DNA from: Candidatus Cloacimonadales bacterium
Lineage (GTDB): Bacteria; Cloacimonadota; Cloacimonadia; Cloacimonadales; DAONDQ01
Length of the DNA: 64,000 nucleotides
NCBI GenBank assembly: GCA_963662275.1
Contig: OY759316.1
Location: forward strand, 2,526,227 to 2,590,226
Direction of reading: 5' to 3'
Shown: piece by piece, positions 10,544 through 39,541 of the stretch
How the letters are laid out: each line of letters opens with the position of its first letter
How positions within the stretch are numbered: position 1 is the stretch's first letter
The notes under the pieces: model-generated
Database searches by the model: none
What the model saw: the letters and a program-made list of their open reading frames with translations, nothing else
What the model was told of the DNA's origin: nothing
Program-made: the position numbers and the translations under genes

Positions 10544-10767
10544 TGGAACTCCTTATTTCTACAACCCACATAATATAAAATATAATATTCACATGTAATT
10601 TTCATTCCATAGCAAGTTTTATCCAGTATCTTGCCGGATAATATCCATTTTCACTTTAGTCTATCACTTATTTGTTTACATTGGTAGCTATTTCTTCAGG
10701 AATGGTGGCAGCATGGTTCACCTTGCTTTTCGGAACGCTGTTTTCAAACGGCTATGCAATTTGGCTG

Positions 10768-12381
10768 CTACCGAATCACCGTAATCTTCTGTTTCTGCTG
10801 TGCTTCACCGCTGGTGAATACACACACATAAACCCCTGATGAAAGATCATTTAAATTGTAAGTCGCAGAACCGGATTTGGCTTGTTCTGCGTTCATAATA
10901 AACGACTTGACTTTCTGTCCCCGGATATTATAGATACTGATATCAATGGGGCTTATATTATTATGGTTTGAATCATTCAGCTTGATTGTCACAAAACGAT
11001 CATTGGATTTAATGGGATTAGGGCTGATGCTGATGCTCATGTTAAATTGATTGGTAAGAGGCGGACTGAGTGGGTCATTAATACCAACTGTCGTATCCGC
11101 TAATTGCGTATTGCCGGCATAGACATAAACATAGCCCCGATAATCATGTGCCATTGAATCATCAGTAAATGGCGCAGATACGGCAATATCGCAGCAACCA
11201 TCTCTATTGTAATCTCCCATAGTTATGCCATAGCCGAAATTGTCTATATCCTCATTCAAGTTGTAAGGTGCATAAACCAATAAATCTGAATTTCCATTTG
11301 GATGTATTCTTCCCATCCAGATTCTGAATTGATTAATATCGTAATCTGCACCTACCACATCATCATAGCCATCGTGATTTAGATCACCATATTTTAAAGA
11401 TCGCCCGCTTTCCCCCCCCTGCCAGGAAGGATTAAGAGCAAGATTGGGTAACTCATTAGTTTCAGTAGCTCCCAGCCAGACATTCAAACCAGCCCCAGAC
11501 TCATACCCCATAAAATCAGCAATACCGTCACCATTCATATCTCCCAGTGATGTACTTATTTTGGATATACCTGCTTGAGTTTGCGCTAAAACCATCGTAT
11601 CCGTGAGTAAGCTATCAGCATTTCCATAATAAAGCGTAATTAAATGATATCCAATATAGGGATCATCATTTGTATAGCCAATGGTAAAATCATCATAGCC
11701 GTCTCCATTGATATCCCCAATTCCATTAAAACCACTTGGATATGATTCACTATGCAGTGCAGAAGTAGTAACATATTGAAATACGAAACTGCCTCCCCAA
11801 ACTATATAATAAGATTCACCTGGTGAAGAAGAACTTGAACTGAATCCTATATCATCTTTCCCATCTGCATTAAAATCTCCCAATCTACTAACCTTTCTCA
11901 AATTAGCTCCCTGATCTAATGTATATGGGATTAAGATATCTGGCTCAATAGGTACAGTACTTCCACCAGCATATATTCTTAGATAATAGACACTCGGATT
12001 TGAGGTTGGTTCATCTCCACCGATATATAAGTCATCAAATCCATCACCATTCACATCTCCAATATTTACAACAGAATGATATTGAAAATCATACTGCCCT
12101 TCCATAATAATATCCGGGATGTTATCGAAATTAGGTCCTCCAAAATAGATATCAACTTTACCCATGATCCATCCTGATGGAAAATCGCTCTTCCATCCTG
12201 GTGAGCAGACTATTAGATCATCAAAACCATCATGATTAAAATCCAAGGTTGCCATTGTACTTCCAAAATATGATGTATTATGTGCACCCTGCATCGAGGT
12301 CATGATATCGAGGTGGTTTGTGGCAGTGAGAATTCCACAGAAAAGTAGGAAAGCGAAGATGATGATAAATAATTTATTCAT
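10768..12381 (-). CDS. FG-GAP repeat beta-propeller secreted protein with CTD (paralog B)
   Basis: Same architecture as A, MNKLF-type N-terminus, AAGGAG RBS. Confidence 0.9.
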   Translation of the reverse strand: MNKLFIIIFAFLLFCGILTATNHLDIMTSMQGAHNTSYFGSTMATLDFNHDGFDDLIVCSPGWKSDFPSGWIMGKVDIYFGGPNFDNIPDIIMEGQYDFQYHSVVNIGDVNGDGFDDLYIGGDEPTSNPSVYYLRIYAGGSTVPIEPDILIPYTLDQGANLRKVSRLGDFNADGKDDIGFSSSSSSPGESYYIVWGGSFVFQYVTTSALHSESYPSGFNGIGDINGDGYDDFTIGYTNDDPYIGYHLITLYYGNADSLLTDTMVLAQTQAGISKISTSLGDMNGDGIADFMGYESGAGLNVWLGATETNELPNLALNPSWQGGESGRSLKYGDLNHDGYDDVVGADYDINQFRIWMGRIHPNGNSDLLVYAPYNLNEDIDNFGYGITMGDYNRDGCCDIAVSAPFTDDSMAHDYRGYVYVYAGNTQLADTTVGINDPLSPPLTNQFNMSISISPNPIKSNDRFVTIKLNDSNHNNISPIDISIYNIRGQKVKSFIMNAEQAKSGSATYNLNDLSSGVYVCVFTSGEAQQKQKITVIR

Positions 12382-12837
12382 TATAAACTCCTTATAAAAT
12401 TGACATACACAGCTTACTTCAGGAAGTTTTTATCTCCCTAACAGCGGCTGTTTCCTTCAGGTTACGTATTAACATGGTTTACCTTGTTTCTATCTGTAAT
12501 ACAATGACCTAAAGAACATTACCCACAAGCTGAAGCAGTAACCACAAAGAAACTGCATTCTAAAGTAAGTGCACAAAACCAGTATCACATATAAAATAAT
12601 AACATTTCATTTCAAGTCAAGGATTGTTTTTCCAGAGTTGTTTCAATGAACTTTTACTCTCACGTTTATAGTCTGCAACATTCTTCAGTATTACATCATT
12701 TAAAATATGACCTATCCACTTCACAAGATGAGGCGTTGCTGTGCCGTTGCACCTGTGGTGATTACTTCAGGAATCGTGGCAGCATGGTTCACCTTGCTTT
12801 TCGGAACGCTGTTTTCAAACGGCTAGCAGTTTGGCAG

Positions 12838-12873
12838 CTACCGAATCACCGTAATCTTCTGTTTCTGCTGTGC
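12838..12873 (-). pseudogene. Last 12 codons (AQQKQKITVIR*) of a deleted tenth FG-GAP paralog
   Basis: Identical to the 3' end of paralog B (10768-10803) and followed by the same downstream sequence. Similarity breaks abruptly at 12874. Confidence 0.85.
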
Positions 12874-12977
12874 TCTCCACCTCACTTCGCAGTGACGCAG
12901 TTACATTCAGCTATAAGGCTTGACGATGCCTTAGAATGGGACTTGAACCCTCTGATTTCTGTCTATCGCTATCGCAC
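12871..12977 (-). mobile_element. Probable 5' fragment (domain I start) of a group II intron, truncated
   Basis: The minus strand starts GTGCG, has GGGTTCAAGTCCC about 25 nt later, then ATAGCTGAATGTAACTGCGTC...GAGGTGGAGAGCA. This matches my recollection of bacterial class E-like intron 5' ends. No RT ORF and no domain V are present. Confidence 0.55.
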
Positions 12978-13160
12978 TAGTTCCGCATTTACGCGGTTGT
13001 AGAGCTGGATGCCGATCATGCTGTCTGCTATACAATCCGTAGGATGTAATTCTGCTAGCCCAGGAAGTCCTTCCTGGGTAGAGCGATGTGAGAGGAATAA
13101 CCGCCTGCAGCTTATGCTGCATGAGTCCATTAGGACGGCACTATTTACCGCATTCTCCAA
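12978..13160. ncRNA. Unidentified structured segment (candidate ncRNA)
   Basis: Nested inverted repeats and three strong hairpins in non-coding sequence that is GC-richer than its flanks (see findings). No family recognised. Confidence 0.3.
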
Positions 13161-13171
13161 ACACTTAATAC

Positions 13172-13300
13172 ATTCCCCATTATATATACCTGGTCAAAGC
13201 CAAGTTTAAACAAATACTAATCCTGTTTCATTTCAATTTCCCGAAACAGGATTGAAACAGGATTGAAACTGGTATGAACTTGGTATAATATACGTGGAAT
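13172..13300. repeat. MITE-like element with 11-bp-period internal repeats (family alpha)
   Basis: GAAACAGGATT x2, GAAACTGGTAT, GAACTTGGTAT at 13243-13286; inverted unit AATCCTGTTTC at 13219-13229; related to 43463-43596. Confidence 0.65.
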
Positions 13301-13664
13301 AATAGTGGATTGTGCGGGGGCAACGCCTTTGTTTAAAAGGTGGATAGGTCGTATCTAGTACGATACAAGCTGATGTAAATCCATTATGTTATTGCATTAA
13401 GAAAGTCTAGATTTGTTTGGTATTTTGCATCATTTAAAAAATGACCTATCCACCTCACAAGATGAGGCGTTGCTGTGCCGTTGCACCTGTGGTGATTACT
13501 TAAGGAATGGTGGCAGCATGGTTTACCTTGCTTTTCGGAACGCTGTTTTTAAACGGCTATGCATATACATATAGCTCTCTTATTGCCGGAAACATACAAA
13601 AGAACTGCATCATTTAAAAAAAGTTTACCCCCCTTAATCCCCCCTCAGGTAGGGGGGGGAAAAG

Positions 13665-15314
13665 CTACCTTATCACCGTTATCTTCTGTTTCTGCTGTGC
13701 TTCACCGCTGGTGAATACACACACATAAACCCCTGATGAAAGATCATTTAAATTGTAAGTCGCAGAACCTGATTTAGCTTGTTCTGCATTCATAGTAAAC
13801 GACTTGACTTTCTGTCCCCGGATATTATAGATTTCGAAGGTAGAAGCTCCCCCCTTGGGAAGGGGGGTAGGGGGGGTAACCGTAAATCTGACATTAAGTT
13901 CAGAATTCCAAGACTGCAGCGGATTGGGATACAACTGCAGTTTGGAGATTGCTGGAGTATTTGTTTCATCAGCATTGGGTGTTGGATCATCCAGTTGCGT
14001 GTTTCCGGCATAGACAAATACACGACCAGGTGTAGGAAAAGCTGCATAATCAAACGGTGCCGAAATGGCAGCATCGCAGCAGCCGTCCCCATTGTAATCG
14101 CCCATGGTCAGGCAGAAGCCATACATGTCAGTTTCCACATCAAGATATGGTGGTGTCAAATGCAGATCGGGACCTCCGTTCATAGGAATGCCTCCTATCC
14201 ACAGGTAGGCGTCTCCATAACCGCTAAACTGGGTAACATTGGTGCCCATCAGATCATCTGTGCCATTACCATTCACATCGCCGTGACAAAAACCTTCACC
14301 GGCCGGATCACCGCTGTACGGAGGAGCAATGTTTACACAATTGGTTCCGTTAAAACCAGGACCTCCAAATATTAGTTTAGCATCTGAACCGGAGAAGGCA
14401 CTCACGAAATCATCATGACCATCTCCATTTACATCACCTGCAGGATAAACACAGGTATTGAAATTTAATCCTTCACAAATTACTAAGCTGTCATTATAAG
14501 CACTTGTTGAATCCCCATAATACAAAATTACTTTGGAATATCTTTCATTGTCATTATCAATGATATATTTGTAACTTATGCAAAAATCATCTATCCCATC
14601 AGCATTTACATCACCTACACTGCAAATATTATCTTTATCCATTGAAGTACCTGCTTCCATGAAAACTGTATTAGTCATGCTTCCTCCATAAATAACTTCG
14701 AAGGTAATCGGAGGTCGGAAACCATTCCTTATCATAGCAAATCCAAGATCATCAAAACCATCATGATTTATATCCCCTAAACCACGTACAAAACCACCAC
14801 CGTTATGCCATTCCTCCCTCGGGAAAGTGAGTATATAATCGGGAACAGTATCGGGATTCGCACCACCGTAAAAGACGCAGAGCTGCAAGTCATAGAACTG
14901 ATCTATATTCTCTTCATACATCGTCGCCCGAAACAATGCCAGGTCATCTATCCCATCACCATTCATATCGCCCGCATTGCACATGGAGGATGAAAGTCCA
15001 TATTCTATCTCATGGTGACCGGTGATTTCCATTTCAGGCACATTATCAAAATTGGGACCGCCAAAATAAATGTATAGTTTACCATATGGGTATGGTGGAT
15101 AAGAAGGAGTATAACCTCTGGGATCCCAATTAGGTGAAGTTATAATTAAATCATCATTGCTATCTCCATTCCAGTCGAGAGTAGTCATGAGTCTGCCCAT
15201 CGAAGAATGATCATGTTCCCCGGTCATGGTGGTCATAATATCCATGTGGTTCAAGGCAGGGAGAATGCTGGTGAAAAGAAGAACAGCTAAAACAGCTAAA
15301 ATACCTTTATACAT
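13665..15314 (-). CDS. FG-GAP repeat beta-propeller secreted protein with CTD (paralog C, most divergent)
   Basis: MYKGIL-type signal peptide and GDxNxDGxDD repeats. The last ~50 aa are nearly identical to paralog B. Confidence 0.9.
   Translation of the reverse strand: MYKGILAVLAVLLFTSILPALNHMDIMTTMTGEHDHSSMGRLMTTLDWNGDSNDDLIITSPNWDPRGYTPSYPPYPYGKLYIYFGGPNFDNVPEMEITGHHEIEYGLSSSMCNAGDMNGDGIDDLALFRATMYEENIDQFYDLQLCVFYGGANPDTVPDYILTFPREEWHNGGGFVRGLGDINHDGFDDLGFAMIRNGFRPPITFEVIYGGSMTNTVFMEAGTSMDKDNICSVGDVNADGIDDFCISYKYIIDNDNERYSKVILYYGDSTSAYNDSLVICEGLNFNTCVYPAGDVNGDGHDDFVSAFSGSDAKLIFGGPGFNGTNCVNIAPPYSGDPAGEGFCHGDVNGNGTDDLMGTNVTQFSGYGDAYLWIGGIPMNGGPDLHLTPPYLDVETDMYGFCLTMGDYNGDGCCDAAISAPFDYAAFPTPGRVFVYAGNTQLDDPTPNADETNTPAISKLQLYPNPLQSWNSELNVRFTVTPPTPLPKGGASTFEIYNIRGQKVKSFTMNAEQAKSGSATYNLNDLSSGVYVCVFTSGEAQQKQKITVIR
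13847..13877. repeat. C6-loop-G6 palindromic element inside paralog C; inverted sister copy at 13627-13659
   Basis: CCCCCCTT-GGG-AAGGGGGG-TAGGGGGGGT is read in frame as TPPTPLPKGG. A similar element lies just downstream of the stop. Confidence 0.7.
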
Positions 15315-15686
15315 TGGTACTCCTTATTTCTACAACCCACAGAATATAAAATATAATATTCACACGTAATTTTCGTTCCATTGCTATTTTTATCCTGTAT
15401 CTTGCCGGATAATATCTATTTTCTCTTAATCTATCACGTTTTTGTTAATTTCATTGTTGTTTCTGGGGCGCCATCTATTTGATGGTGCTACGTACTCTTT
15501 TAGAGGACGTATTCTCTTCATTGGCATTTCAATAAAGAAAACACCGGATATCAGATAATGTTAAAACATTAAAACGGCTGAAGCAGTTGATCTAACGACA
15601 GAAGATCATGTTAAAACATGATAACTGCTGAAGCAGTTGATCCAACGACTGAAGTTGTTGCTACGGAATACCCGTTGAAGTTGTTG

Positions 15687-17297
15687 CTACCGAATAAAAG
15701 AGATTTTTTTAACTTCTGCTCTGTTTCCTTGTTTTACTTGGCAGAGATAGACACCACTTGCCATTTTACTAATATCCATACTGTAGGTATCCGATATCGC
15801 AGTTTTATCTGAGTGTATCTTTTGCATACATTGTCCCCTGATATTGTAAATGCTGATGTCTATTAGACTTTTATCATTATTGGATACATTTCTGAGTTTG
15901 ACAGAAATATAGCGATCAGTTATTCTTGCAGGATTAGGGCTGATGCTCATGTCGAATTGATTGGTAACAGGAGGAGTCAGAGGGTCATTAATACCAACTG
16001 TCGTATCCGCTAATTGCGTATTTCCAGCATAAACGTAAACATACCCCCGATAATCAGGTAAAAGCGTATTATCCGTAAAAGGAGCTGATATAGCAATATC
16101 ACAGCAGTCATCACCATTGTAATCACCCATTGTTAAACCATACCCAAAATAATCCAATAGATTTGCAGGAATATAAGGAGCATTAATTAGCAAATCCGAA
16201 TCCCCATTAGGTTGTGCTCTTCCCAGCCAGATGCGAAATGCATTTTGATAATAATTTGTGCCGACAACATCATCAAAACCATCGTTATTCAAATCACCAT
16301 ATTTCAGACACTGCCCAAATTCGTCTCCTTGCCAAGCAGGATTTAATGCAAAATTCGGAATACTGTCAGTTTCAGTCGATCCCAACCAAACATTTAACCC
16401 TGCAATGGACTGATATCCCATGAAGTCAGCAAATCCGTCACCATTAAGATCTCCCAAAGGAGTGCTAATTTTGGATATACCTGTCTGTGTCTGTGTCAAT
16501 ACCATTTGGTTATCAGATGAGCCTGTTGCATTACCAAAATAGATAGTTATGAGATGGTAACCTATATTGGGATCTTCATTCGTGTAACCGATAGCAAAAT
16601 CATCGTATCCATCATGATTAATATCTCCAATACCGTTAAACCCAGTAGTATAAGAGTCACTAAAATCAGAGGATGTGGTAATATACTGTCTTTCAAAACT
16701 ATTACCCAACATAATATAAAATATCTCTGCTAAATTTGGCGTACCAATGCTGAACCCAATATCATCATAATTATCCCCGTTAATATCACCTAAAGGAGTC
16801 ACTTTGGCTACATAATAATTCGTTTCCAGAGTATAAGAAATCATGATATCCGGTTCAGTCGGAACAGTGTCACCACCTGTATAAATTCTTAGATAGTGTT
16901 CAATGGGATTAGCAGTAGGTTCATCTCCATTAATGTATAAATCATCAAATCCATCACCGTTCACATCGCCGATGTTAACGACGGACTTATATTGAAAATC
17001 ATACTGCCCTTCCATCGTGATATCAGGGACATTATCAAAGTCAGAACCTCCAAAATAGATATCCACTTTTCCTTTTGGCCAATCCATTGGTGCCGGATAA
17101 ACGCTTTTCCATTCAGGCGAGCAGACAATCAAATCATCAAAACCATCATGATTAAAGTCCAAGGTTGCCATTGTACTTCCAAAATATGATGTATTATGTG
17201 CACCCTGCATTGAGGTCATGATATCGAGGTGGTTTGTGGCAGCGAGAATTCCACAGAAAAGTAGGAAAGCGAAGATGATGATAAATAATTTATTCAT
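15687..17297 (-). CDS. FG-GAP repeat beta-propeller secreted protein with CTD (paralog D)
   Basis: True start is taken as MNKLF at 17297 (AAGGAG RBS, matches the paralogs). The ORF-track extension to 17390 is not conserved in frame in sister cassettes. Confidence 0.9.
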   Translation of the reverse strand: MNKLFIIIFAFLLFCGILAATNHLDIMTSMQGAHNTSYFGSTMATLDFNHDGFDDLIVCSPEWKSVYPAPMDWPKGKVDIYFGGSDFDNVPDITMEGQYDFQYKSVVNIGDVNGDGFDDLYINGDEPTANPIEHYLRIYTGGDTVPTEPDIMISYTLETNYYVAKVTPLGDINGDNYDDIGFSIGTPNLAEIFYIMLGNSFERQYITTSSDFSDSYTTGFNGIGDINHDGYDDFAIGYTNEDPNIGYHLITIYFGNATGSSDNQMVLTQTQTGISKISTPLGDLNGDGFADFMGYQSIAGLNVWLGSTETDSIPNFALNPAWQGDEFGQCLKYGDLNNDGFDDVVGTNYYQNAFRIWLGRAQPNGDSDLLINAPYIPANLLDYFGYGLTMGDYNGDDCCDIAISAPFTDNTLLPDYRGYVYVYAGNTQLADTTVGINDPLTPPVTNQFDMSISPNPARITDRYISVKLRNVSNNDKSLIDISIYNIRGQCMQKIHSDKTAISDTYSMDISKMASGVYLCQVKQGNRAEVKKISFIR

Positions 17298-17701
17298 TAT
17301 AAACTCCTTATAAAATTGACATACACAGCTAACATCAGGAAGTTTTATCTCACTAACGGTGGCTGTTTCTTTCAGGTAACGTGTTAACATGGTTTACCTT
17401 GTTTCTATCTGTAATACAATGACCTAAAGAACATTACCCACAAGCTGAAGCAGTAACCACAAAGAAACTGCATTCTAAAATAAGCGCACAAAACCAGTAT
17501 CACATATAAAATAATAACATTTCATTTCAAGTCAAGGATTGTTTTTCCAGAGTTGTTTCAATGAACTTTTACTCTCACGTTTACATTCTGTAACATTCTT
17601 CAGTATTGCATCATTTAAAATATGACCTATCCACCGATTAAAAATCAGCGTCGCGTTTGAAAAAAGAATACTTTCCAGAGGATAAACACATGGGTTTATC
17701 C
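17298..17701. repeat. ~400-bp intergenic cassette repeated at 12382-12740, 17298-17701, 19313-19717, 21329-21731, 23340-23740, 25352-25754
   Basis: Near-identical blocks upstream of every MNKLF-type paralog, giving an array period of about 2.01 kb. Confidence 0.95.
17508..17535 (-). promoter_or_regulatory. Candidate sigma70-like promoter repeated in each intergenic cassette
   Basis: TTGACT-16 nt-TATTTT on the minus strand, conserved in all six cassettes. Confidence 0.35.
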
Positions 17702-17705
17702 CTAC
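17678..17705 (-). repeat. GTAG-REP-like hairpin overlapping the stop codon (also 19694-19721, 21708-21735, 23717-23744, 25731-25758)
   Basis: Minus strand GTAGGGATAAACCCATGTGTTTATCCTC; the TAG of GTAG is the gene stop. Confidence 0.75.
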
Positions 17706-19312
17706 TTTACCAACGATATTTTTTTTGTTTTAACCCGATTACCTGATTTTACCTGGCAGAGATAGACACCGCTTGCCATTTTACTGATATCCACCATGTA
17801 AGCATTTGATACTGTGGCTTTATCTGAGTGTATCTTTTGCACACATTGACCCCTGATATTATAAATGCTGATATCAATTGTACTTTTATCATTATTTGAT
17901 ACATTCCCGAGTTTGACAGAAATATAGCGATCACTTATTTTTGCAGGATTAGGGCTGATGCTCATGTCGAATTGATTGGTAAGAGGCGGACTGAGAGGGT
18001 CAATAATACCAACTGTTGTGTCTGCTAATTGTGTATTTCCGGCATAGACATAAACATAGCCCCGGTAATCATGTGCCATAGAATCATCAGTAAATGGGGC
18101 AGATACGGCAATATCACAGCAGTCATCCCCGTTGTAATCTCCCATTGTAAGACGGTAACCGAAGTAATCCAATGGATTTTCAGGAATATAGGGTGCTGTT
18201 ACGAAAAGATCGGAATCTCCGTTCACTTGTGCTCTTCCCATCCAGATTTGGAATTGATTACTATAAAAATTAGAACCAACCACATCGTCAAAGCCATCGT
18301 TATTCAAATCTCCAAATTTTAAACATTGTCCGAATTCCCCTCCCTGCCAGGGTGGATTTAAAGCAAAATTCGGTAATGTATCAGATTCAGTCGAACCCAG
18401 CCAGACATTTAACCCCGTCATGGACTGATATCCCATGAAATCATCAATACCGTCACCATTAATATCTCCCAAGGGAGTACTAATCTTGGATATACCTGCT
18501 TGAGTTTGAGTTAGAACCAAATTGTTGGTAAGGATACCATCTGCATTTCCATAATAGATTGTAATTAGATGATAGCCTATATTTGGGTCTTCATTTGTAT
18601 AACCGATAGAAAAATCATCATAGCCATCATTATTAATATCTCCTATTCCATTAAAACCAGTTGTATAAGAATCACTATAATCAGAGGATGTAGTAACATA
18701 CTGTCTTTCTAAATCATTACCCCTTATAATGTAAAATATTTCTGCCAAATTTGGAGTACCGATACTGAAACCAATTTCATCATAATTATCTCCGTTAATA
18801 TCTCCTAAAGGAGCCACTTTGGCTACATAATAATTCGTTTCCAGAGTATATGGAATCATAATATCCGGTTGTGTTGGAGCAGTATTCCCACCAGTATAGA
18901 TTCTTAGATAATATGTACTTGGACTAGCGGTCGGTTCATCTCCATTAATGTATAAATCATCAAATCCATCACCGTTCACATCGCCGATGTTAACGACGGA
19001 CTTACATTGAAAATCATACTGCCCTTCCATGGTAATATCCGGGATGTTATTAAAATTAGGTCCTCCAAAATAGATATCAACTTTGCCTTTTTGATTATCA
19101 AAAGGAGCAGGATATGTACTTTTCCATCCCCTGGAACATACAACCAGATCATCATACTCGTCATGATTAAAATCCAGCGTTGCCATTGTCTCTCCAAAAG
19201 AGGCATGATTGTGCGAACCTTGCATTGAGGTCATAATATCAAGGTGGTTTGTGGCGGAGAGAATTCCAAAGAAAAGTAGGAAAGCTAAGAGCATGATAAA
19301 TAATTTATTCAT
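17702..19312 (-). CDS. FG-GAP repeat beta-propeller secreted protein with CTD (paralog E)
   Basis: Same architecture as A and B. Confidence 0.9.
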   Translation of the reverse strand: MNKLFIMLLAFLLFFGILSATNHLDIMTSMQGSHNHASFGETMATLDFNHDEYDDLVVCSRGWKSTYPAPFDNQKGKVDIYFGGPNFNNIPDITMEGQYDFQCKSVVNIGDVNGDGFDDLYINGDEPTASPSTYYLRIYTGGNTAPTQPDIMIPYTLETNYYVAKVAPLGDINGDNYDEIGFSIGTPNLAEIFYIIRGNDLERQYVTTSSDYSDSYTTGFNGIGDINNDGYDDFSIGYTNEDPNIGYHLITIYYGNADGILTNNLVLTQTQAGISKISTPLGDINGDGIDDFMGYQSMTGLNVWLGSTESDTLPNFALNPPWQGGEFGQCLKFGDLNNDGFDDVVGSNFYSNQFQIWMGRAQVNGDSDLFVTAPYIPENPLDYFGYRLTMGDYNGDDCCDIAVSAPFTDDSMAHDYRGYVYVYAGNTQLADTTVGIIDPLSPPLTNQFDMSISPNPAKISDRYISVKLGNVSNNDKSTIDISIYNIRGQCVQKIHSDKATVSNAYMVDISKMASGVYLCQVKSGNRVKTKKISLVK

Positions 19313-19717
19313 TATAAACTCCTTATAAAATTGACATACACAACTTACTTCAGGAATTTTATCTCTCTAATGGTGGCTGTTTCCTTCAGGTAGCGTGTTA
19401 ACATGGTTTACCTTGTTTCTATCTGTAATACAATGACCTAAAGAACATTACCCACAAGCTGAAGCAGTAACCACAAAGAAACTGCATTCTAAAGTAAGTG
19501 CACAAAACCAGTATCACATATAAAATAATAACATTTCATTTCAAGTCAAGGATTGTTTTTCCAGAGTTGTTTCAATGAACTTTTACTCTCACGTTTATAG
19601 TCTGTAACATTCTTCAGTATTGCATCATTTAAAATATGACCTATCCACCGATTAAAAATCAGCGTTGCATTTCAAAAAAAAGCATACTTTCCAGAGGATA
19701 AACACATGGGTTTATCC

Positions 19718-21328
19718 CTACTTTACCAACGATATTTTTTTTGTTTTAACCCGATTACCTGATATTACCTGGCAGAGATAGACACCACTTGCCATTTTGC
19801 TGATATCCAGCATGAATGTATCAGATGTTTTGTTTTTATTTAAGTGTGTTTGCTGCACACATTGTCCCCTGATATTAAAAATGCTTATATCGATTGGATT
19901 TTTTTCACCGGCTGAATTGTCTTGCAGTTTAATTGCAATATATCGGTCATTAATCCTCACAGGATTAGGGCTGATACTCATGGTAATTTGATTTGTAACT
20001 TTTGGACTTAGCGGATCATTAATTCCGACTGTAGTATCAGCTAATTCTGTATTCCCTGCATACACATACACATACCCGCGATAATCGGTGGCAAATTCGT
20101 AATCCGTTTCCGGTGCAGAAATGGCAATATCACAGCATCCATCTGCATTGTAATCCCCCATAGTTAATCCATATCCAAAATAGTCCAATGGGTTAGCGGA
20201 AATATATGGGGCTGTAATCAATAAATCAGAAATGCCATTGACCTGTGCTCTCCCCAGCCAGACTTGGAATTGATTTGAATAGAAATTAGCACCTGCAATA
20301 TCATCAAAGCCATCGTTATTTAAATCACCATATTTCAGTGAAAAGCCATCTTCCCCTCCCTGCCAGGGAGGATTCAATGCAAAATTTGGTATGGAATCAG
20401 TATCAGTTGCTCCAAACCAGACATTCAAACCGGCTATGGATTGATAACCCATAAAATCATCTAAGCCATCACCATTAATATCTCCCAACGGTGTACTTAT
20501 TTTTGAAATACCAGCTTGAGTCTGTGTCAAAATCATATAATTGTTAAAATTACTTTCTGCATTTCCAAAATATAAAGTAATGAGGTGATAACCTATATTA
20601 GGATCTTCGTTTGTATAACCGATAGCGAAATCGTCATAACCATCATGATTAATATCCCCTATCCCATTAAAACCATTTGAATAAGATGCACTAAAATCAG
20701 AGGAAGTGGTAATATACTGTCTTTCTAAACTATTACCCCACAAAATATAAAAAATCTCTGCTAAATTTGGCGTACAAATGCTGAACCCAATATCACCATA
20801 ATTATCCCCATTAATATCACCTAAATTGACAACATGATAAAGATCATATTCGGCTTCTAAAGTATACGGAATCAAGATATCCGGTTCTGCAGGAGCTATA
20901 CTACTACCTGTATATATTCTCAAATAGTATATACTTGGATTTGACTCCGGTTCATCACCACCGATGCATAAATCATCATAGCCATCGCCGTTGAGATCTC
21001 CGATATTGACAACACTATGATATTGATCAGCATATTGCCCAAGCAAAGAGATTTCTGCAACATTATCAAAACCCAGTCCACCAAAATAGATATCCACTCT
21101 ACCTTTATTATATGAAGGGGGGGTTGGATATGGATTTCTCCAAGCAGGGGAACAGACAATAAGATCGTCATGACCATCATGATTAAAATCAAGGGTAGCC
21201 ATCGTTTCTCCAAAAGAGGCATGATTGTGCGAACCTTGCATTGATGTCATAATATCAAGATGGTTTGTGGCGGAGAGAATTCCAAAGAAAAGTAGGAAAG
21301 CTAAGAGCATGATAAATAATTTATTCAT
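19718..21328 (-). CDS. FG-GAP repeat beta-propeller secreted protein with CTD (paralog F)
   Basis: Same architecture; the central 1.36 kb is nearly identical to paralog H. Confidence 0.9.
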   Translation of the reverse strand: MNKLFIMLLAFLLFFGILSATNHLDIMTSMQGSHNHASFGETMATLDFNHDGHDDLIVCSPAWRNPYPTPPSYNKGRVDIYFGGLGFDNVAEISLLGQYADQYHSVVNIGDLNGDGYDDLCIGGDEPESNPSIYYLRIYTGSSIAPAEPDILIPYTLEAEYDLYHVVNLGDINGDNYGDIGFSICTPNLAEIFYILWGNSLERQYITTSSDFSASYSNGFNGIGDINHDGYDDFAIGYTNEDPNIGYHLITLYFGNAESNFNNYMILTQTQAGISKISTPLGDINGDGLDDFMGYQSIAGLNVWFGATDTDSIPNFALNPPWQGGEDGFSLKYGDLNNDGFDDIAGANFYSNQFQVWLGRAQVNGISDLLITAPYISANPLDYFGYGLTMGDYNADGCCDIAISAPETDYEFATDYRGYVYVYAGNTELADTTVGINDPLSPKVTNQITMSISPNPVRINDRYIAIKLQDNSAGEKNPIDISIFNIRGQCVQQTHLNKNKTSDTFMLDISKMASGVYLCQVISGNRVKTKKISLVK

Positions 21329-21731
21329 TATAAACTCCTTATAAAATTGACATACACAACTTACTTCAGGAATTTTATCTCTCTAATGGTGGCTGTTTCC
21401 TTCAGGTAGCGTATTAACATGGTTTACCTTGTTTCTATCTGTAATACAATGACCTAAAGAACATTACCCACAAGCGAAAGCAGTAACCACAAAGAAACGG
21501 CATTCTAAAGTAAGCGCACAAAACCAGTATCACATATAAAATAATAACATTTCATTTCAAGTCAAGGATTGTTTTTCCAGAGTTGTTTCAATGAACTTTT
21601 ACTCTCACGATTATAGTCTGTAACATTCTTCAGTATTGCATCATTTAAAATATGACCTATCCACCGATTAAAAATCAGCGTCGCGTTTGAAAAAAGAATA
21701 CTTTCCAGAGGATAAACACATGGGTTTATCC

Positions 21732-23339
21732 CTACTTAACTAATGAGATTTTTTTGATTTTTACCCTATTACCTTTTGTTAATTGACATAGATAGATGCC
21801 ACTTGCTATTTTATGAATATCAAGAGAGTATGTATCTGTTATGTTATTTTTATCGAAGTGTGCTTGCTGCACACATTGTCCCCTAATGTTATAAATTCTG
21901 ATGTCAATTGGGCTTTTATCAGTACCTTGATTAGTCAGTTTGATGTTAATATTGCGATCGTTTGAATTCACCGGATTAGGACTGATGCTGATATTAAACT
22001 GGCTAGATATAGGCGGTGTTAAAGGATCATTAATTCCTACTGTAGTGTCTGCCAATTCAGTATTTCCAGCATAAACGTAAACATACCCCCGATAATCAGG
22101 TAAAAGCGTATTATCCGTAAAAGGTGCTGATACGGCAATATCACAGCAGTCATCCCCATTATAATCACCCATCGTTAAACCATACCCAAAATAATCCAAC
22201 AGATTTGCAGGAATATAAGGTGCTGTTACTGATAAATCCGAATCACCATTAGGATGAGTTCTTCCTAACCAGATTCTGAATGCATTCTCATAAAAATTTG
22301 TACCAACAACATCATCAAAACCATCATTATTCAAATCACCATATTTCAGAGAAAATCCGAATTCACTACCTTGCCAAGGGGGATTAAAAAAAAGATCAGG
22401 AATAAGATTTGTTTGCTGTGAACCTAACCAGATACATAACCCATCATTTGACTCATACCCCATAAAATCATCTAACCCATCTCCGTTGATATCCCCAATT
22501 GGAGTACTGGTCTTTGTTATTGGTGCCTGGGTATGGGCTAAATTAACGGTATTAGTTAATTCACTTTCCTCATTTCCAAAGTAAATAATTATCAAATGAT
22601 AGCCGGTATTAGGATCAGCATTTGTATAGCCTATTGAAAAATCATCATATCCATCACCATTGATATCTCCAACACCGCTAATATTATAAGTATATGACGA
22701 AGCATGAGCACTAGAAATAGTGATCAACTCAGTTTCAAAACTTCCTCCCCATATAATATAATATGCTTCACATGTAGAAAAAATATCAGTACTAAATCCT
22801 ATCTCATCAATATGATCGCCATTAAAATCCCCTAATTTGGTTACCCACGTTAAATTATTACCTGATGCCAATGGATATGAAATCATAATATCCGGTTCAG
22901 TAGGAACAGTGTCACCACCTGTATAAATCCTCAAATAATACGCAGTCGGATTTGATGTAGGCTCATCGCCACCGATATATAAATCATCATATCCATCACC
23001 ATTCACATCACCTACATTAACGACAGACTTATACTGGAAATCATACTGTCCTAACATTGTAATATCCGGGATGTTATCAAAGTTTGTTCCACCAAAATAG
23101 ATATCCACTCTTCCTTTGGGCCAATTCACAGGATCAGGATAAAGACTTTTCCATTCCGGAGAGCAGACAATCAAGTCATCAAATCCATCATGATTAAAAT
23201 CCAAAGTTGCCATCGTTGCGCCAAAATATGAATTATTATGGGCACCTTGCATGGAGGTCATGATATCCATGTGGTTCAAGGCAGGGAGAATTCGAGAGAA
23301 AAGTAGGAAAGCGAAGATGATGATAAATAATTTATTCAT
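21732..23339 (-). CDS. FG-GAP repeat beta-propeller secreted protein with CTD (paralog G)
   Basis: Same architecture as the other paralogs. Confidence 0.9.
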   Translation of the reverse strand: MNKLFIIIFAFLLFSRILPALNHMDIMTSMQGAHNNSYFGATMATLDFNHDGFDDLIVCSPEWKSLYPDPVNWPKGRVDIYFGGTNFDNIPDITMLGQYDFQYKSVVNVGDVNGDGYDDLYIGGDEPTSNPTAYYLRIYTGGDTVPTEPDIMISYPLASGNNLTWVTKLGDFNGDHIDEIGFSTDIFSTCEAYYIIWGGSFETELITISSAHASSYTYNISGVGDINGDGYDDFSIGYTNADPNTGYHLIIIYFGNEESELTNTVNLAHTQAPITKTSTPIGDINGDGLDDFMGYESNDGLCIWLGSQQTNLIPDLFFNPPWQGSEFGFSLKYGDLNNDGFDDVVGTNFYENAFRIWLGRTHPNGDSDLSVTAPYIPANLLDYFGYGLTMGDYNGDDCCDIAVSAPFTDNTLLPDYRGYVYVYAGNTELADTTVGINDPLTPPISSQFNISISPNPVNSNDRNINIKLTNQGTDKSPIDIRIYNIRGQCVQQAHFDKNNITDTYSLDIHKIASGIYLCQLTKGNRVKIKKISLVK

Positions 23340-23740
23340 TATATACTCCTTATAAAATTGACATACACAACTTACTTCAGGAATTTTATCTCTCTAATGG
23401 TGGCTGTTTCCTTCAGGTAACGTGTTAACATGGTTTACCTTGTTTCTATCTGTAATACAATGACCTAAAGAACATTACCCACAAGCTGAAGCAGTAACCA
23501 CAAAGAAACTGCATTCTAAAGTAAGCGCACAAAACCAGTATCACATATAAAATAATAACATTTCATTTCAAGTCAAGGATTGTTTTCCAGGATTTTTTAA
23601 TGAACTTTTACTCTCACGTTTATAGTCTGCAACATTCTTCAGTATTGCATCATTTAAAATATGACCTATCCACCGATTAAAAATCAGCGTCGCGTTTGAA
23701 AAAAGAATACTTTCCAGAGGATAAACACATGGGTTTATCC

Positions 23741-25351
23741 CTACTTAACTAATGAGATTTTTTTGATTTTTACCCTATTACCTTTTGTTAATTGACATAG
23801 ATAGATGCCACTTGCTATTTTATGAATATCAAGAGAGTATGTATCTGTTATGTTATTTTTATCGAAGTGTGCTTGCTGCACACATTGTCCCCTAATATTA
23901 AAAATGCTGATGTCGATTGGATTTTTTTCACCGGCTGAATTATCTTGCAGTTTAATTGCAATATATCGGTCATTAATCCTCACAGGATTAGGGCTGATAC
24001 TCATGGTAATTTGATTTGTAGCAGTCGGACTTAGCGGATCATCAATACCAACTGTAGTGTCTGCTAATTCTGTATTACCGGCATACACATAAACATACCC
24101 GCGATAATCGGTGGCAAATTCGTAATCCGTTTCCGGTGCAGAAATGGCAATATCACAGCATCCATCTGCATTGTAATCCCCCATAGTTAATCCATATCCA
24201 AAATAGTCCAATGGGTTAGCGGAAATATATGGGGCTGTAATCAATAAATCAGAAATGCCATTGACCTGTGCTCTCCCCAGCCAGACTTGGAATTGATTTG
24301 AATAGAAATTAGCACCTGCAATATCATCAAAGCCATCGTTATTTAAATCACCATATTTCAGTGAAAAGCCATCTTCCCCTCCCTGCCAGGGAGGATTCAA
24401 TGCAAAATTTGGTATGGAATCAGTATCAGTTGCTCCAAACCAGACATTCAAACCGGCTATGGATTGATAACCCATAAAATCATCTAAGCCATCACCATTA
24501 ATATCTCCCAACGGTGTACTTATTTTTGAAATACAAGCTTGAGTCTGTGTCAAAATCATATAATTGTTAAAATTACTTTCTGCATTTCCAAAATATAAAG
24601 TTATGAGGTGATAACCTATATTAGGATCTTCGTTTGTATAACCGATAGCGAAATCGTCATAACCATCATGATTAATATCCCCTATCCCATTAAAACCATT
24701 TGAATAAGATGCACTAAAATCAGAGGAAGTGGTAATATACTGTCTTTCTAAACTATTACCCCACAAAATATAAAAAATCTCTGCTAAATTTGGCGTACAA
24801 ATGCTGAACCCAATATCACCATAATTATCCCCATTAATATCACCTAAATTGACAACATGATAAAGATCATGCTCGGCTTCTAAAGTATACGGAATCAAGA
24901 TATCCGGTTCTGCAGGAGCTATACTACTACCTGTATATATTCTCAAATAGTATGTACTTGGATTTGACTCCGGTTCATCACCACCGATGCATAAATCATC
25001 ATAGCCATCGCCGTTGAGATCTCCGATATTGACAACACTATGATATTGATCAGCATATTGCCCAAGCAAAGAAATTTCTGCAACATTATCAAAACCCAGT
25101 CCACCAAAATAGATATCCACTCTACCTTTATTATATGAAGGGGGGGTTGGATATGGATTTCTCCAAGCAGGGGAACAGACAATAAGATCGTCATGACCAT
25201 CATGATTAAAATCAAGGGTAGCCATCGTTTTACCAAATCTAGAATTATGATGTTCACCCTGCATTGTGGTCATGATATCGAGGTGGTTAGTGGCGGAGAG
25301 AATTCCAAAGAAAAGTAGGAAAGCTAAGAGGACGATAAATAATTTATTCAT
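23741..25351 (-). CDS. FG-GAP repeat beta-propeller secreted protein with CTD (paralog H)
   Basis: True start is taken as MNKLF at 25351 (RBS, paralog alignment); the ORF track extends to 25444. Confidence 0.9.
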   Translation of the reverse strand: MNKLFIVLLAFLLFFGILSATNHLDIMTTMQGEHHNSRFGKTMATLDFNHDGHDDLIVCSPAWRNPYPTPPSYNKGRVDIYFGGLGFDNVAEISLLGQYADQYHSVVNIGDLNGDGYDDLCIGGDEPESNPSTYYLRIYTGSSIAPAEPDILIPYTLEAEHDLYHVVNLGDINGDNYGDIGFSICTPNLAEIFYILWGNSLERQYITTSSDFSASYSNGFNGIGDINHDGYDDFAIGYTNEDPNIGYHLITLYFGNAESNFNNYMILTQTQACISKISTPLGDINGDGLDDFMGYQSIAGLNVWFGATDTDSIPNFALNPPWQGGEDGFSLKYGDLNNDGFDDIAGANFYSNQFQVWLGRAQVNGISDLLITAPYISANPLDYFGYGLTMGDYNADGCCDIAISAPETDYEFATDYRGYVYVYAGNTELADTTVGIDDPLSPTATNQITMSISPNPVRINDRYIAIKLQDNSAGEKNPIDISIFNIRGQCVQQAHFDKNNITDTYSLDIHKIASGIYLCQLTKGNRVKIKKISLVK

Positions 25352-25754
25352 TATAAACTCCTTATAAAATTGACATACACAGCTTACTTCAGGAAGTTTT
25401 ATCTCACTAACGGTGGCTGTTTCCTTCAGGTAACATGTTAACATGGTTTACCTTGTTTCTATCTGTAATACAATGACTTAAAGAACATTACCCACAAGCT
25501 GAAGCAGTAACCACAAAGAAACTGCATTCTAAAGTAAGCGCACAAAACCAGTATCACATATAAAATAATAACATTTCATTTCAAGTCAAGGATTGTTTTT
25601 CCAGAGTTGTTTCAATGAACTTTTACTCTCACGTTTATATTCTGTAACATTCTTCAGTATTGCATCATTTAAAATATGACCTATCCACGATTAAAAATCA
25701 GCGTCGCGTTTGAAAAAAGAATACTTTCCAGAGGATAAACACATGGGTTTATCC

Positions 25755-27353: not shown

Positions 27354-27696
27354 TGGTACTCCTTATTTCTACAACCCACAGAATATAAAATATAATATAC
27401 ACACGTAATTTTCATTCCATAGCAAGTTTTATCCAGTATCTTGCCGGATAATATCCATTTTATCTTTTATCTATCACGTTTTTGTTAATTTCACAGTTGT
27501 TTCTGGGTCGCCATCTATCTGATGGTGCTACGTGCTCTTTTAGAGGACGTATTCTCTTCATTGGCATTTCAATGGGGGAACCACCGGATGTCAGATCATG
27601 TTAAAACATAATAACTGCTGAAGCAGTTGATCCAACGACTGAAGTTGTTGCTACGGTGTTGCTACGGTGTTGCTACTTGAGGATTGACAGATGGGG

Positions 27697-39374: not shown

Positions 39375-39401
39375 GAACGACTCCTTCCGTATCAAATAAA
39401 A

Positions 39402-39467
39402 CAGGAGTCATCAGAAGTATACAACTACGGTTTGGAACTAAAAAAATTCCCGGCGAACTCCATCACC
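39402..39467 (-). promoter_or_regulatory. Fluoride riboswitch (crcB motif)
   Basis: Minus strand GGTGATGGAGTTCGCC...AAACCGT...CTGATGACTCCT matches the fluoride aptamer consensus, directly upstream of crcB. Confidence 0.92.
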
Positions 39468-39541
39468 GTTGTCAACCTTTGTGGATAGGTTGTTTTGTCA
39501 ATAAGAGAAGCATTGTGAAGTTAGCCCAGCATCTCAAATGA

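What the first reader, a model, noticed from the sequence alone, without database searches (positions are those of the whole stretch)
12709..25707. Fixed-arm motif with a covarying 15-nt hairpin, eight copies including one inverted
Seen: GACCTATCCA-[15 nt]-CGT(T/C)GC at 12709, 13443, 17624, 19638, 21654, 23663 and 25678 (14-nt spacer there), plus an inverted copy at 13320-13350. The arms are constant, but the spacer occurs as unrelated palindromes of the same length: CCTCA-CAAGA-TGAGG (CTTCA at 12709), CCTTT-TAAAC-AAAGG and CCGATT-AAA-AATCAG. Sequence changes while pairing and length are kept, which is the signature of a selected RNA or ssDNA structure. I recognise no riboswitch or ribozyme. 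Inference: an undescribed cis-element, such as a processing site, protein-binding RNA or hairpin-type recombination/nicking site, placed between nearly every pair of variable genes. Most copies are duplicates, so there are only about three independent variants.
Basis: partly seen in the sequence, partly recalled or inferred. Interest (0 to 1): 0.65.

Follow-up and report, generated by a model that had tools for sequence, protein, structure and literature searches.

The report
Two-hairpin REP repeats with cognate RAYT
The motif is a real DNA hairpin repeat whose structure is conserved (a REP element); about 100 copies lie between genes of this Cloacimonadota genome and they bracket the domesticated transposase genes (RAYTs) that most likely copy them, so it is a variant of a known bacterial repeat, not a new RNA or a device of the variable genes.

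Summary
All eight copies sit at the stated coordinates, where chance predicts none. The unit is larger than reported, about 49 nt. Both hairpins covary strongly: 93.6% of cells are paired against 74% in shuffles and 35-50% in slid controls, and 91 cells are changed on both sides.

A covariance model finds 97 copies in the 4.38-Mb genome and 40 in the only congeneric genome. It finds none, bar two weak hits, in 59 other genomes of the order.

Copies fall into subfamilies A-D. Subfamilies A, B and C each bracket one gene of a single RAYT clade, with 8, 4 and 3 copies within 1 kb. The other 12 Y1-transposase genes have no copy within 7.9 kb. The same bracketing is seen for both clade members in the congener.

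The element is therefore a REP/BIME family with cognate RAYTs (REPtrons). It is atypical in having two hairpins and a non-GTAG tag. It is not specific to the FG-GAP gene array. No Rfam family matches.

Verdict: new variant of a known kind, of modest interest.

The parts
12691..12739 (-). REP unit, subfamily A. Spacer hairpin CTTCA-CAAGA-TGAGG on the + strand; the folded strand is -. It lies 328 nt upstream of FG-GAP gene 10768-12381.
   Evidence: 59.7 bits
13320..13368 (+). REP unit, subfamily A, inverted copy (CCTTT-TAAAC-AAAGG). Left member of the BIME-like doublet.
   Evidence: 63.9 bits
13425..13473 (-). REP unit, subfamily A (CCTCA-CAAGA-TGAGG). Right member of the doublet.
   Evidence: 67.9 bits
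13313..13501 (.). It recurs at genome positions 514.7 kb, 2304.7 kb (inverted) and 2792.5 kb (inverted), and three times in tandem (205-bp period) beside RAYT-A.
17606..17654 (-). REP unit, subfamily A (CCGATT-AAA-AATCAG; U.G wobble on the - strand), 47 nt after the stop of gene 17702-19312.
   Evidence: 61.4 bits
19620..19668 (-). REP unit, subfamily A, 49 nt after the stop of gene 19718-21328.
   Evidence: 66.0 bits
21636..21684 (-). REP unit, subfamily A, 47 nt after the stop of gene 21732-23339.
   Evidence: 61.4 bits
23645..23693 (-). REP unit, subfamily A, 47 nt after the stop of gene 23741-25444.
   Evidence: 61.4 bits
25660..25707 (-). REP unit, subfamily A, with a 1-nt deletion in the spacer hairpin (14 nt), 47 nt after the stop of gene 25755-27353.
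   Evidence: 48.2 bits
12740..12835 (.). Flank module of about 95 nt that always accompanies the CCTCA/TGAGG units. It is also at 13474-13568 and beside at least 7 units elsewhere in the genome. Function unknown.
8933..27353 (-). Context only: tandem array of nine FG-GAP plus T9SS C-terminal-sorting-domain paralogs. Six of its spacers carry the REP units.

Best explanation
The motif is a REP (repetitive extragenic palindrome) family. It is organised partly as BIME-like inverted doublets and arrays. Its cognate enzyme is a REP-associated tyrosine transposase (RAYT, also called TnpA-REP, an HUH/Y1 single-strand DNA nuclease-ligase).

Anatomy, shown: each unit is about 49 nt. On its active strand it reads 5'-G[C/G][A/G][A/G] tag, hairpin of 7-8 bp (CG-CC-NNN-loop-NNN-GG-YG), linker (G-GATAG in subfamily A), then a second 15-nt hairpin.

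Mechanism, inferred from the family: when the DNA is single-stranded, the RAYT binds the folded hairpin plus tag, nicks nearby through its catalytic tyrosine, and rejoins strands. This copies or reshuffles units between intergenic sites.

Origin of the window copies: those between FG-GAP genes were multiplied passively when a gene-plus-spacer unit was tandemly duplicated.

Possible secondary role, inferred: the hairpins are probably transcribed at the 3' ends of many genes, as is known for REPs. This was not tested.
For: 1. Cognate enzyme.
- The 206-aa ORF at genome 4069641-4070261 scores 87.3 bits on NCBIfam NF047646 'REP-associated tyrosine transposase' (cut-off 80) and hits Pfam Y1_Tnp.
- Its best solved relative is E. 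coli TnpA-REP, 4ER8. The HUH motif (HIH) and the Y-x3-NPVKA tyrosine motif align.

2. REPtron layout.
- Eight subfamily-A units lie within 1 kb of that gene. Six alternate in orientation with a 205-bp period on one side and two lie on the other side.
- 44 units in 4.38 Mb predict about 0.02 in such a span.

3. Specificity.
- Of 15 Y1_Tnp loci in the genome, only the three genes of one RAYT clade (46-50% mutual identity) have model hits within 1 kb: 8, 4 and 3 hits.
- The other 12 have none within 7.9 kb.
- Each of the three is flanked by its own subfamily, with linker CTATCCA, TGCCA or GCACG.

4. Replication in another species.
- In the congeneric genome G001, both clade-I RAYTs are directly bracketed by units of the same architecture but with different stems. 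L013 has inverted copies 24 nt before the start and 5 nt after the stop. L014 has one copy upstream and three downstream.
- The G001 RAYT that is 65% identical to RAYT-B carries B-type units.

5. Co-occurrence.
- Among 61 genomes of the order, clade-I RAYTs and strong model hits occur only in G000 (93 hits) and G001 (40 hits).

6. Structure.
- 14 pairs, 93.6% of cells paired against 73.7% in shuffles (0/500 reach it) and 35-50% when partners are slid. 91 cells are changed on both sides against 30 expected.

7. Homology to canonical REPs.
- A Cloacimonadota RAYT 42% identical to RAYT-A (L031) is flanked by GTAA/GTAG-CG-CTGTCTTTAGACGG-TG. This is the same hairpin as unit g4091876, but with a canonical tag.

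8. Distribution typical of REPs.
- 92 of 97 copies lie outside crude ORFs. Convergent spacers are enriched (27% of copies against 15% of intergenic bp) and divergent spacers depleted (15% against 24%).
Against: - No canonical GT[AG]G tag is present. The tags are GCAA, GGAA, GGAG, GCAG and GCGA.
- Stems are short, and the AT-rich window copies are thermodynamically weak: z = +0.4 for the 17606 unit and -2 to -2.7 for others. Only covariation supports folding there.
- Copy number (about 100) is at the low end for REPs.
- No clean empty site was recovered. The alaS spacer lacks the unit in G001, but it is rearranged.
- G001 holds A-type units, yet no RAYT more than 55% identical to RAYT-A was found in its 240-contig assembly.
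- Cross-genome support rests on one other species.
- No biochemical or read-level evidence exists.
- In tandem gene contexts the folded strand is the sense strand in 43 of 53 cases. This could also reflect selection on RNA.
Confidence: 0.85

Rival explanations
1. The unit is primarily an RNA element on the gene-sense strand. It would be a 3'-UTR stabiliser, processing site or terminator-like structure, or a small RNA, selected for function in transcripts. Its proximity to RAYT genes would be secondary.
For: - The folded strand equals the sense strand of the neighbouring genes in 43 of 53 tandem contexts, and many units lie 6-100 nt after stop codons.
- G.U pairs are tolerated only on that strand.
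- REPs are known to stabilise mRNA 3' ends (PMC3733652, PMC6006769).
Against: - No Rfam family matches. The best overlap is Chlorobi-1 at 13.3 bits against a gathering score of 50.
- 24 of 92 extragenic copies are antisense or in divergent spacers.
- Inverted doublets and tandem arrays flank three RAYT genes and no other Y1 genes.
- The units co-occur with one RAYT clade across 61 genomes.
- G.T wobble is equally allowed in single-stranded DNA.
- No terminator-like site was called in the spacer.
Confidence: 0.08
2. The unit is a miniature IS200/IS605-type element (PATE/MITE-like). Its two hairpins would be the left-end and right-end subterminal hairpins, and it would be moved as a whole by a Y1 transposase of an insertion sequence rather than by a domesticated RAYT.
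For: - It has two hairpins of equal size with a short conserved linker and sharp unit boundaries.
- The genome holds four IS200-like tnpA genes.
- The folded strand equals the leading-strand sequence in 66 of 97 copies.
Against: - None of the four IS200-like genes has a unit within 7.9 kb.
- The flanked genes reach the RAYT equivalog model above its cut-off, but not the IS200 model (29.3 bits against a cut-off of 55).
- The tag-proximal hairpin is homologous to single-hairpin GTAA/GTAG REPs of related RAYTs.
- No target-site signature or empty site was found.
Confidence: 0.04
3. The unit is a double-stranded protein-binding site: a promoter (TTGCAT-N16-TATCCA on the GACC strand), an operator, or a site for a tyrosine or serine recombinase or integron integrase acting on the FG-GAP array.
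For: - The upstream TTGCATC lies at a fixed 11-nt distance from GACCTATCCA in many subfamily-A copies.
- An inverted pair is present at 13320/13443.
- Homology between spacer types breaks exactly at the unit.
Against: - The 'spacer' and the stretch between TTGCATC and TATCCA change sequence while keeping complementarity. This is selection on a folded strand, not on a duplex sequence.
- The strand asymmetry of wobble pairs has no meaning for duplex DNA.
- The units are oriented against the FG-GAP genes as promoters.
- No integrase or invertase was seen next to the array, and attC R''/R' consensus sequences are absent.
- Units occur genome-wide beside unrelated genes.
Confidence: 0.03

Closest known systems
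E. coli REP/BIME elements and their REPtron (tnpA-REP = yafM; PDB 4ER8; Ton-Hoang et al. 2012, PMC3333891; Corneloup et al. 2021, PMC8266576)
   Same: - Short extragenic hairpins carry an unpaired 5' tetranucleotide tag.
- Several subfamilies are present in one genome.
- Units alternate in orientation in clusters.
- A Y1/HUH gene is bracketed by its own repeats.
- The protein aligns with 4ER8 across the HUH and Tyr motifs.
   Different: - The tag is G[C/G][A/G][A/G], not GTAG.
- The stem is 7-8 bp without the characteristic bulge.
- A second 15-nt hairpin is fixed 5-8 nt downstream, so the unit has two hairpins.
- There are about 100 copies rather than several hundred.
- There are three cognate RAYT paralogs of one clade in one genome.
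TnpA-Y1 subclass 2.6 ('atypical' REP-like structures, mostly Bacteroidetes; Quentin et al. 2018, PMC6006769)
   Same: - These are RAYT-like genes of the FCB group flanked by non-GT[AG]G, weaker secondary structures that also occur elsewhere in the genome.
- The nearest named relatives of RAYT-A outside Cloacimonadota are in Emticicia, a Bacteroidota genus.
   Different: - The 2.6 structures listed in their Table S1 are single hairpins of 8-10 bp with GCTAG/GCTGG-type feet.
- None has the two-hairpin layout or the CCA-CC...GG-CGYTSC signature.
- Membership of RAYT-A in subclass 2.6 could not be tested because their profiles are not at hand.
REPINs and RAYTs of Pseudomonas (Bertels and Rainey; described in PMC6006769)
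   Same: Two REP units in inverted orientation form a recurrent doublet module (window 13313-13501; 4 loci plus 3 tandem copies at RAYT-A). Each RAYT is associated with one repeat family.
   Different: The two arms of the doublet carry different stems and are 92 nt apart, so they cannot form one long REPIN hairpin. Many units are singletons.
CGTC-tagged REPs (Di Nocera et al. 2013, PMC3733652)
   Same: The hairpin is flanked by CGTC-like and CCA motifs. This type is found in Chlorobi and Bacteroidetes among other phyla.
   Different: - In CGTC REPs the order is CGTC-hairpin-CCA on one strand. Here it is CCA-hairpin-CGT(C/T), the mirror order and not the complement.
- Their stems are 8-9 bp with A/T first pairs.
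- CGTC REPs have no associated transposase, whereas these have one.
Subterminal hairpins of IS200/IS605 insertion sequences (IS608, ISDra2)
   Same: These are single-strand DNA hairpins recognised by a Y1 HUH enzyme, with a short guide or tag at the hairpin foot and strand-specific activity.
   Different: No transposase gene lies between the hairpins, and the IS200-like genes of this genome are not associated with the units.

Membership tests
REP/BIME with cognate RAYT (REPtron) | Short (20-60 nt) repeated sequence that forms a stem-loop, with structure kept by compensatory changes | tested here: met
   Two helices with 14 pairs; 93.6% of cells paired; 91 cells changed on both sides; 0 of 500 shuffles reach this; slid controls give 35-50%
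REP/BIME with cognate RAYT (REPtron) | Many dispersed copies, almost all extragenic | tested here: met
   97 model hits in 4.38 Mb, 92 of them outside crude ORFs that cover 85% of the genome. Copy number is at the low end for REPs.
REP/BIME with cognate RAYT (REPtron) | Unpaired 5' GT[AG]G tetranucleotide at the foot of the hairpin | tested here: not met
   An unpaired tetranucleotide sits at the equivalent position, but it reads GCAA, GGAA, GGAG, GCAG or GCGA in all 34 aligned units. The homologous hairpin beside a 42%-identical RAYT carries GTAA/GTAG, so the tag has diverged rather than being absent.
REP/BIME with cognate RAYT (REPtron) | A RAYT gene bracketed by copies of the same repeat family | tested here: met
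   8, 4 and 3 units lie within 1 kb of RAYT-A, -B and -C. The other 12 Y1 genes have none within 7.9 kb. The same bracketing holds for two RAYTs in G001.
REP/BIME with cognate RAYT (REPtron) | The flanked protein is a TnpA-REP-type Y1 enzyme with HUH and catalytic Tyr | tested here: met
   NF047646 scores 87.3 bits, above its cut-off of 80. Pfam Y1_Tnp scores 37.1, above its cut-off of 23. 4ER8 is the best PDB match, with HIH and YIVMNPVKA aligned.
REP/BIME with cognate RAYT (REPtron) | Units clustered in alternating orientation (BIME-like) | tested here: met
   Six alternating units with a 205-bp period lie beside RAYT-A. An inverted doublet of about 189 bp recurs at four other loci, including window 13313-13501.
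REP/BIME with cognate RAYT (REPtron) | One repeat family per RAYT (co-evolution) | tested here: met
   Subfamilies A, B and C each flank their own RAYT paralog. B-type units flank the 65%-identical G001 RAYT.
REP/BIME with cognate RAYT (REPtron) | The RAYT cleaves and rejoins the single-stranded repeat | not testable with these tools
   This needs purified protein and oligonucleotide substrates.
CGTC-tagged REP superfamily | CGTC tag at one end, 8-9 bp stem starting with A/T pairs, 4-5 nt loop, CCA tail at the other end | tested here: not met
   The order of CCA and CGTY is reversed on the same strand, and stems start with C-G/C-G.
Known RNA families (Rfam 15) | Match at or above a family's gathering score | tested here: not met
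   The only window hit is a fluoride riboswitch at 39395-39476. With permissive thresholds nothing significant overlaps the units.
TnpA-Y1 subclass 2.6 (Quentin 2018) | Placement of the protein in that subclass, with its alphaC-beta4 insertion | not tested
The only indications are the FCB-group taxonomy of relatives and the atypical repeats.

The most novel reading that the evidence does not exclude
The two-hairpin unit may be a fused head-to-tail REP dimer that acts as a built-in recombination joint. In this reading, clade-I RAYTs cut in the conserved linker and exchange the tag-proximal hairpin (with its flank) against the distal hairpin (with its flank). Units would then serve as join-points that created, expanded and reshuffled the FG-GAP/T9SS surface-protein arrays.

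Three observations suggested this:
- The hairpins reassort: one distal hairpin type is found with three different proximal hairpins.
- Homology between spacer types breaks exactly at the linker.
- Left and right modules are re-paired between the two FG-GAP arrays.
Probability: 0.1. Interest if true: 0.65.

Novelty: new variant of a known kind. Interest (0 to 1): 0.3.

Why it matters
- The finding removes a candidate 'new structured RNA' from the list. It also explains a conspicuous repeat in and around the FG-GAP array.
- It adds a well-defined case to REP/RAYT biology from a poorly studied phylum. One genome holds three paralogous RAYTs of one clade, each with its own repeat subfamily, all sharing an unusual two-hairpin, non-GTAG architecture.
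- Such matched enzyme-substrate trios are convenient material for asking how Y1 HUH enzymes read hairpin plus tag, as was done for three TnpA-REP/REP pairs in PMC8266576.
- For annotation, the covariance model shows that these units can be masked as repeats. Otherwise they may be mistaken for terminators, sRNAs or regulatory sites.

Tried and rejected
- tmRNA or tRNA at 12900-13300, suggested by a GGGTTCAAGTCCC-like string: ARAGORN and Rfam find nothing.
- FG-GAP pseudogene filling 12836-13200: only the last 12 codons are retained, at 12841-12876.
- ECF-sigma, sigma-54 and sigma-70 promoter readings of the arms: spacings do not fit and the 'spacers' covary.
- Link to T9SS cargo genes: the neighbouring genes are unrelated housekeeping genes.
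- Rfam with permissive thresholds: only sub-threshold noise, namely Chlorobi-1 at 13.3 bits and CRISPR-DR5 at 27.9 bits on a neighbouring hairpin.
- Intrinsic terminator between stop codon and unit: none called.
- Empty-site comparison at alaS between G000 and G001: the unit is absent in G001, but the spacer is rearranged, so unit ends could not be defined.
- Empty-site comparison among array spacers: spacers without the unit belong to a different, unalignable class.
- Search for the two-hairpin unit beside more distant RAYTs. Emticicia, Ignavibacteriales, Calditrichota, Chlorobiota and other Cloacimonadota gave no model hits. Most of the loci whose flanking repeats were inspected carry single-hairpin GTA(N) REPs; L032 shows none. 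One (G004, L025) carries a different 61-nt two-hairpin tandem unit.
- EPSP synthase as a taxonomic probe found nothing.

Full report
**Observation**

The pattern GACCTATCCA-N14/15-CGTYGC occurs eight times in the window, at exactly the coordinates given. None was found in 100 dinucleotide-preserving shuffles. The spacers are as described.

The surrounding genes on the minus strand (8933-27353) are nine paralogs with FG-GAP repeats and a T9SS C-terminal sorting domain. Five of the copies (17624-25678) lie in near-identical spacers of that tandem array, 47-49 nt after a stop codon.

**The unit is larger and has two hairpins**

Searching the whole 4.38-Mb genome for the 10-mer and relaxed versions gave 44 good copies. 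Their spacer stems include CCTCA/TGAGG, CCTTT/AAAGG, CCGAT/ATCAG, CCTTA/TAAGG, CCTCTT/AAGAGG and CCGTCT/AGACAG. A congeneric genome adds CCGCA/TGCGG.

The sequence upstream of the 'constant arm' also changes while staying complementary. Examples are TCATTT-AAA-AAATGA, GTCGC-AAGGAAT-GCGAC, GGGCG-AAAGGAATT-CGCCC and CGTTGC-AAAGAAT-GCAACG. The 3' strand of this hairpin runs into GAC(C).

A nearly gap-free alignment of 32 non-identical units gives these counts for two six-pair helices:
- 85% of cells paired, against 62% in shuffles.
- 87 cells changed on both sides, against 29.5 expected.
- 31-47% paired when partners are slid.

**Which strand folds**

Realigned on that strand, the spacer hairpin gains two pairs, C-G and G.U/G-C. 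The second of these is G.U in 28 units and G-C in 6. The whole structure then reaches 93.6% paired cells, against 73.7% in shuffles (0 of 500 reach it) and 35-50% in slid controls, with 91 double changes.

The anatomy on the active strand is:
- 5'-G[C/G][A/G][A/G] tag.
- Hairpin CG-CC-NNN-loop-NNN-GG-YG.
- A second 15-nt hairpin, often followed by TGCAA.

Single-strand DNA folding predicts exactly these two hairpins. The AT-rich array copies are thermodynamically unremarkable, with z from +0.4 to -2.7; a GC-rich subfamily gives z = -4.5.

**What it is**

Translating ORFs next to the copies showed unrelated neighbours, including alaS, an AddB-like helicase, an MFS transporter, YifB and Ppx/GppA. 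One 206-aa protein had PNHIHLL and YIVMNPVKA motifs.

That protein (genome 4069641-4070261) has these matches:
- It passes the NCBIfam equivalog model for REP-associated tyrosine transposase: 87.3 bits against a cut-off of 80.
- It hits Pfam Y1_Tnp.
- It aligns best with E. coli TnpA-REP, 4ER8, across the HUH and Tyr motifs.

The gene is bracketed by eight units. Six alternate in orientation at a 205-bp period downstream, the nearest one 1 nt from the stop codon. Two lie upstream. This is the REPtron layout described for REP/BIME elements (PMC3333891, PMC6006769).

**Specificity**

The genome has 15 Y1_Tnp loci: four IS200-like genes and eleven RAYT-like genes in three clades.

A covariance model built from the alignment finds 97 units in the genome. 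They fall into four subfamilies that share the architecture but differ in linker and stems:
- A: about 44 units, linker CTATCCA.
- B: about 40 units, linker TGCCA.
- C: about 9 units, linker GCACG.
- D: 4 units, linker AACCA.

Only the three RAYT genes of clade I have units within 1 kb: RAYT-A has 8, RAYT-B at 640 kb has 4, and RAYT-C at 3044 kb has 3. Each is flanked by its own subfamily. The other twelve Y1 genes have no unit within 7.9 kb.

**Other genomes**

The closest RAYT relatives are in a Candidatus Cloacimonadota MAG.

Its two clade-I RAYTs are directly bracketed by units with the same layout but different stems and linkers:
- TTCGCAT-TCT-ATGCGAA-GTGTCCA-CCGCATGCTATGCGG-CGCTGC, in inverted orientation 24 nt before the start and 5 nt after the stop.
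- GACGCAC-AGG-GTGCGTC-GTGCCA-CCTCACGGGGTGAGG-CGTTCC, one copy upstream and three downstream.

The second RAYT is 65% identical to RAYT-B and carries B-type units.

Across 61 genomes of the order, model hits at E of 1e-4 or better occur only in G000 (93) and G001 (40), plus two weak hits in G008. RAYTs at least 46% identical to RAYT-A occur only in G000 and G001. Among about 185,000 species representatives, no other genome has a RAYT above 42% identity.

More distant RAYTs were inspected in other Cloacimonadota, Ignavibacteriales, Calditrichota and Emticicia. Most are flanked by ordinary single-hairpin REPs with GTAA, GTAG, GTAC or GTAT tags; one (L032) shows no flanking repeats.

One of these, beside a 42%-identical Cloacimonadota RAYT, reads GTAA/GTAG-CG-CTGTCTTTAGACGG-TG. 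That is the same hairpin as one of the units here. The tag-proximal hairpin is therefore a diverged canonical REP, and the second hairpin is an addition.

A different two-hairpin tandem unit flanks a 33%-identical RAYT in another family of the order.

**Distribution**

- 92 of 97 units lie outside crude ORFs.
- Convergent spacers are enriched and divergent ones depleted relative to intergenic length.
- In tandem contexts the folded strand is the gene-sense strand in 43 of 53 cases.
- The folded strand equals the leading-strand sequence in 66 of 97 cases, against 58% for genes.

These are the patterns reported for REPs (PMC3733652). They leave room for a secondary RNA-level role.

**Relation to the array**

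The units are not special to the variable genes. They ride in one of two spacer classes; the spacers at 10544, 15315 and 27354 belong to the other class and lack them.

They do mark homology breakpoints:
- The 12709 copy shares at least 265 nt with the array copies on the distal-hairpin side and nothing beyond the linker on the other side.
- It shares about 95 nt with the 13443 copy on the tag side and only a few nucleotides on the distal side.
- Left and right modules are also re-paired between this array and a second FG-GAP array at 3.69 Mb.

This fits recombination at the units. It does not show that a RAYT did it, since homologous exchange within the roughly 30 shared nucleotides would look the same.

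**Comparison with known families**

- Nothing in Rfam matches.
- Five of the six testable defining features of REP/RAYT systems are met. The exception is the literal GT[AG]G tag.
- The element is not a CGTC-type REP, because the CCA and CGTY motifs are in mirror order and a transposase is present.
- The nearest described precedent is the 'atypical' repeats of TnpA-Y1 subclass 2.6 in Bacteroidetes. However, the examples listed there are single hairpins.

**Limits**

- Cross-species support comes from one other species.
- No clean empty site was found.
- No RAYT-A ortholog was seen in the fragmented G001 assembly, although A-type units are present there.
- Enzymatic processing is inferred from the family, not shown.

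**Verdict**

It belongs to a known class, REP/BIME with cognate RAYTs, as a two-hairpin, non-GTAG variant confined so far to one Cloacimonadota genus.

Noticed in passing
window 39395-39476 (-): Fluoride riboswitch (crcB motif): 43.3 bits against a gathering score of 34. It is the only Rfam hit in the window.
   Followed up: no
window 12877-13210: Non-coding stretch between the 12-codon stub of an FG-GAP gene (12841-12876) and the REP doublet. It is duplicated at genome position 514 kb. It has a weak sub-threshold Acido-Lenti-1 match at 13049-13078 (19.8 bits against 37). Another first-stage note calls it a structured segment. Its nature is not resolved here.
   Followed up: partly
window 13215-13260: Strong 11-bp hairpin AATCCTGTTTC...GAAACAGGATT, preceded by a direct repeat GTTTCAATCCTGTTTCAATCCTG, just beyond the inverted REP unit. 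It has a sub-threshold CRISPR-DR5 match (27.9 bits against 40). It may be a terminator or another repeat type.
   Followed up: no
window 13629-13655; also genome 362.6 kb and 4086.9 kb: A different repeat, CCCCCCT(C/A)...GGGGGG with GGGTAGGGGGG-type hairpins, lies directly after the stop of gene 13665-15314 and at other loci. It is probably another REP class of this genome.
   Followed up: no
whole genome (G000): There are fifteen Y1_Tnp loci: four IS200-like genes (one with an in-frame TGA) and eleven RAYT-like genes in three clades. Only clade I goes with the two-hairpin units. Clades II (for example 2410063-2410725) and III presumably have their own repeat families.
   Followed up: partly
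window 10544-10767, 15315-15686, 27354-27696 versus 12382-12708, 17391-17701, 19313-19717: The FG-GAP array uses two unrelated classes of upstream spacer. One class carries the REP unit and a TTGACT-16-TATTTT promoter-like site (17535-17508, minus strand). The other has repeated GTAGCAACA(A/C)C motifs. This suggests two promoter or leader types for the paralogs.
   Followed up: partly
L025 (G004:C358) 1340-1500 and 2150-2440: A RAYT of another family of the order is flanked by tandem 61-nt units, each with two 7-bp hairpins (AGCGACT...AGTCGCT and GCGAGAT...ATCTCGC) and a GTAAC tag. This is an independent two-hairpin REP design.
   Followed up: no
genome 3689-3700 kb: A second FG-GAP tandem array has the same REP-bearing spacers. 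Its left and right spacer modules are paired differently from those of the window array.
   Followed up: partly
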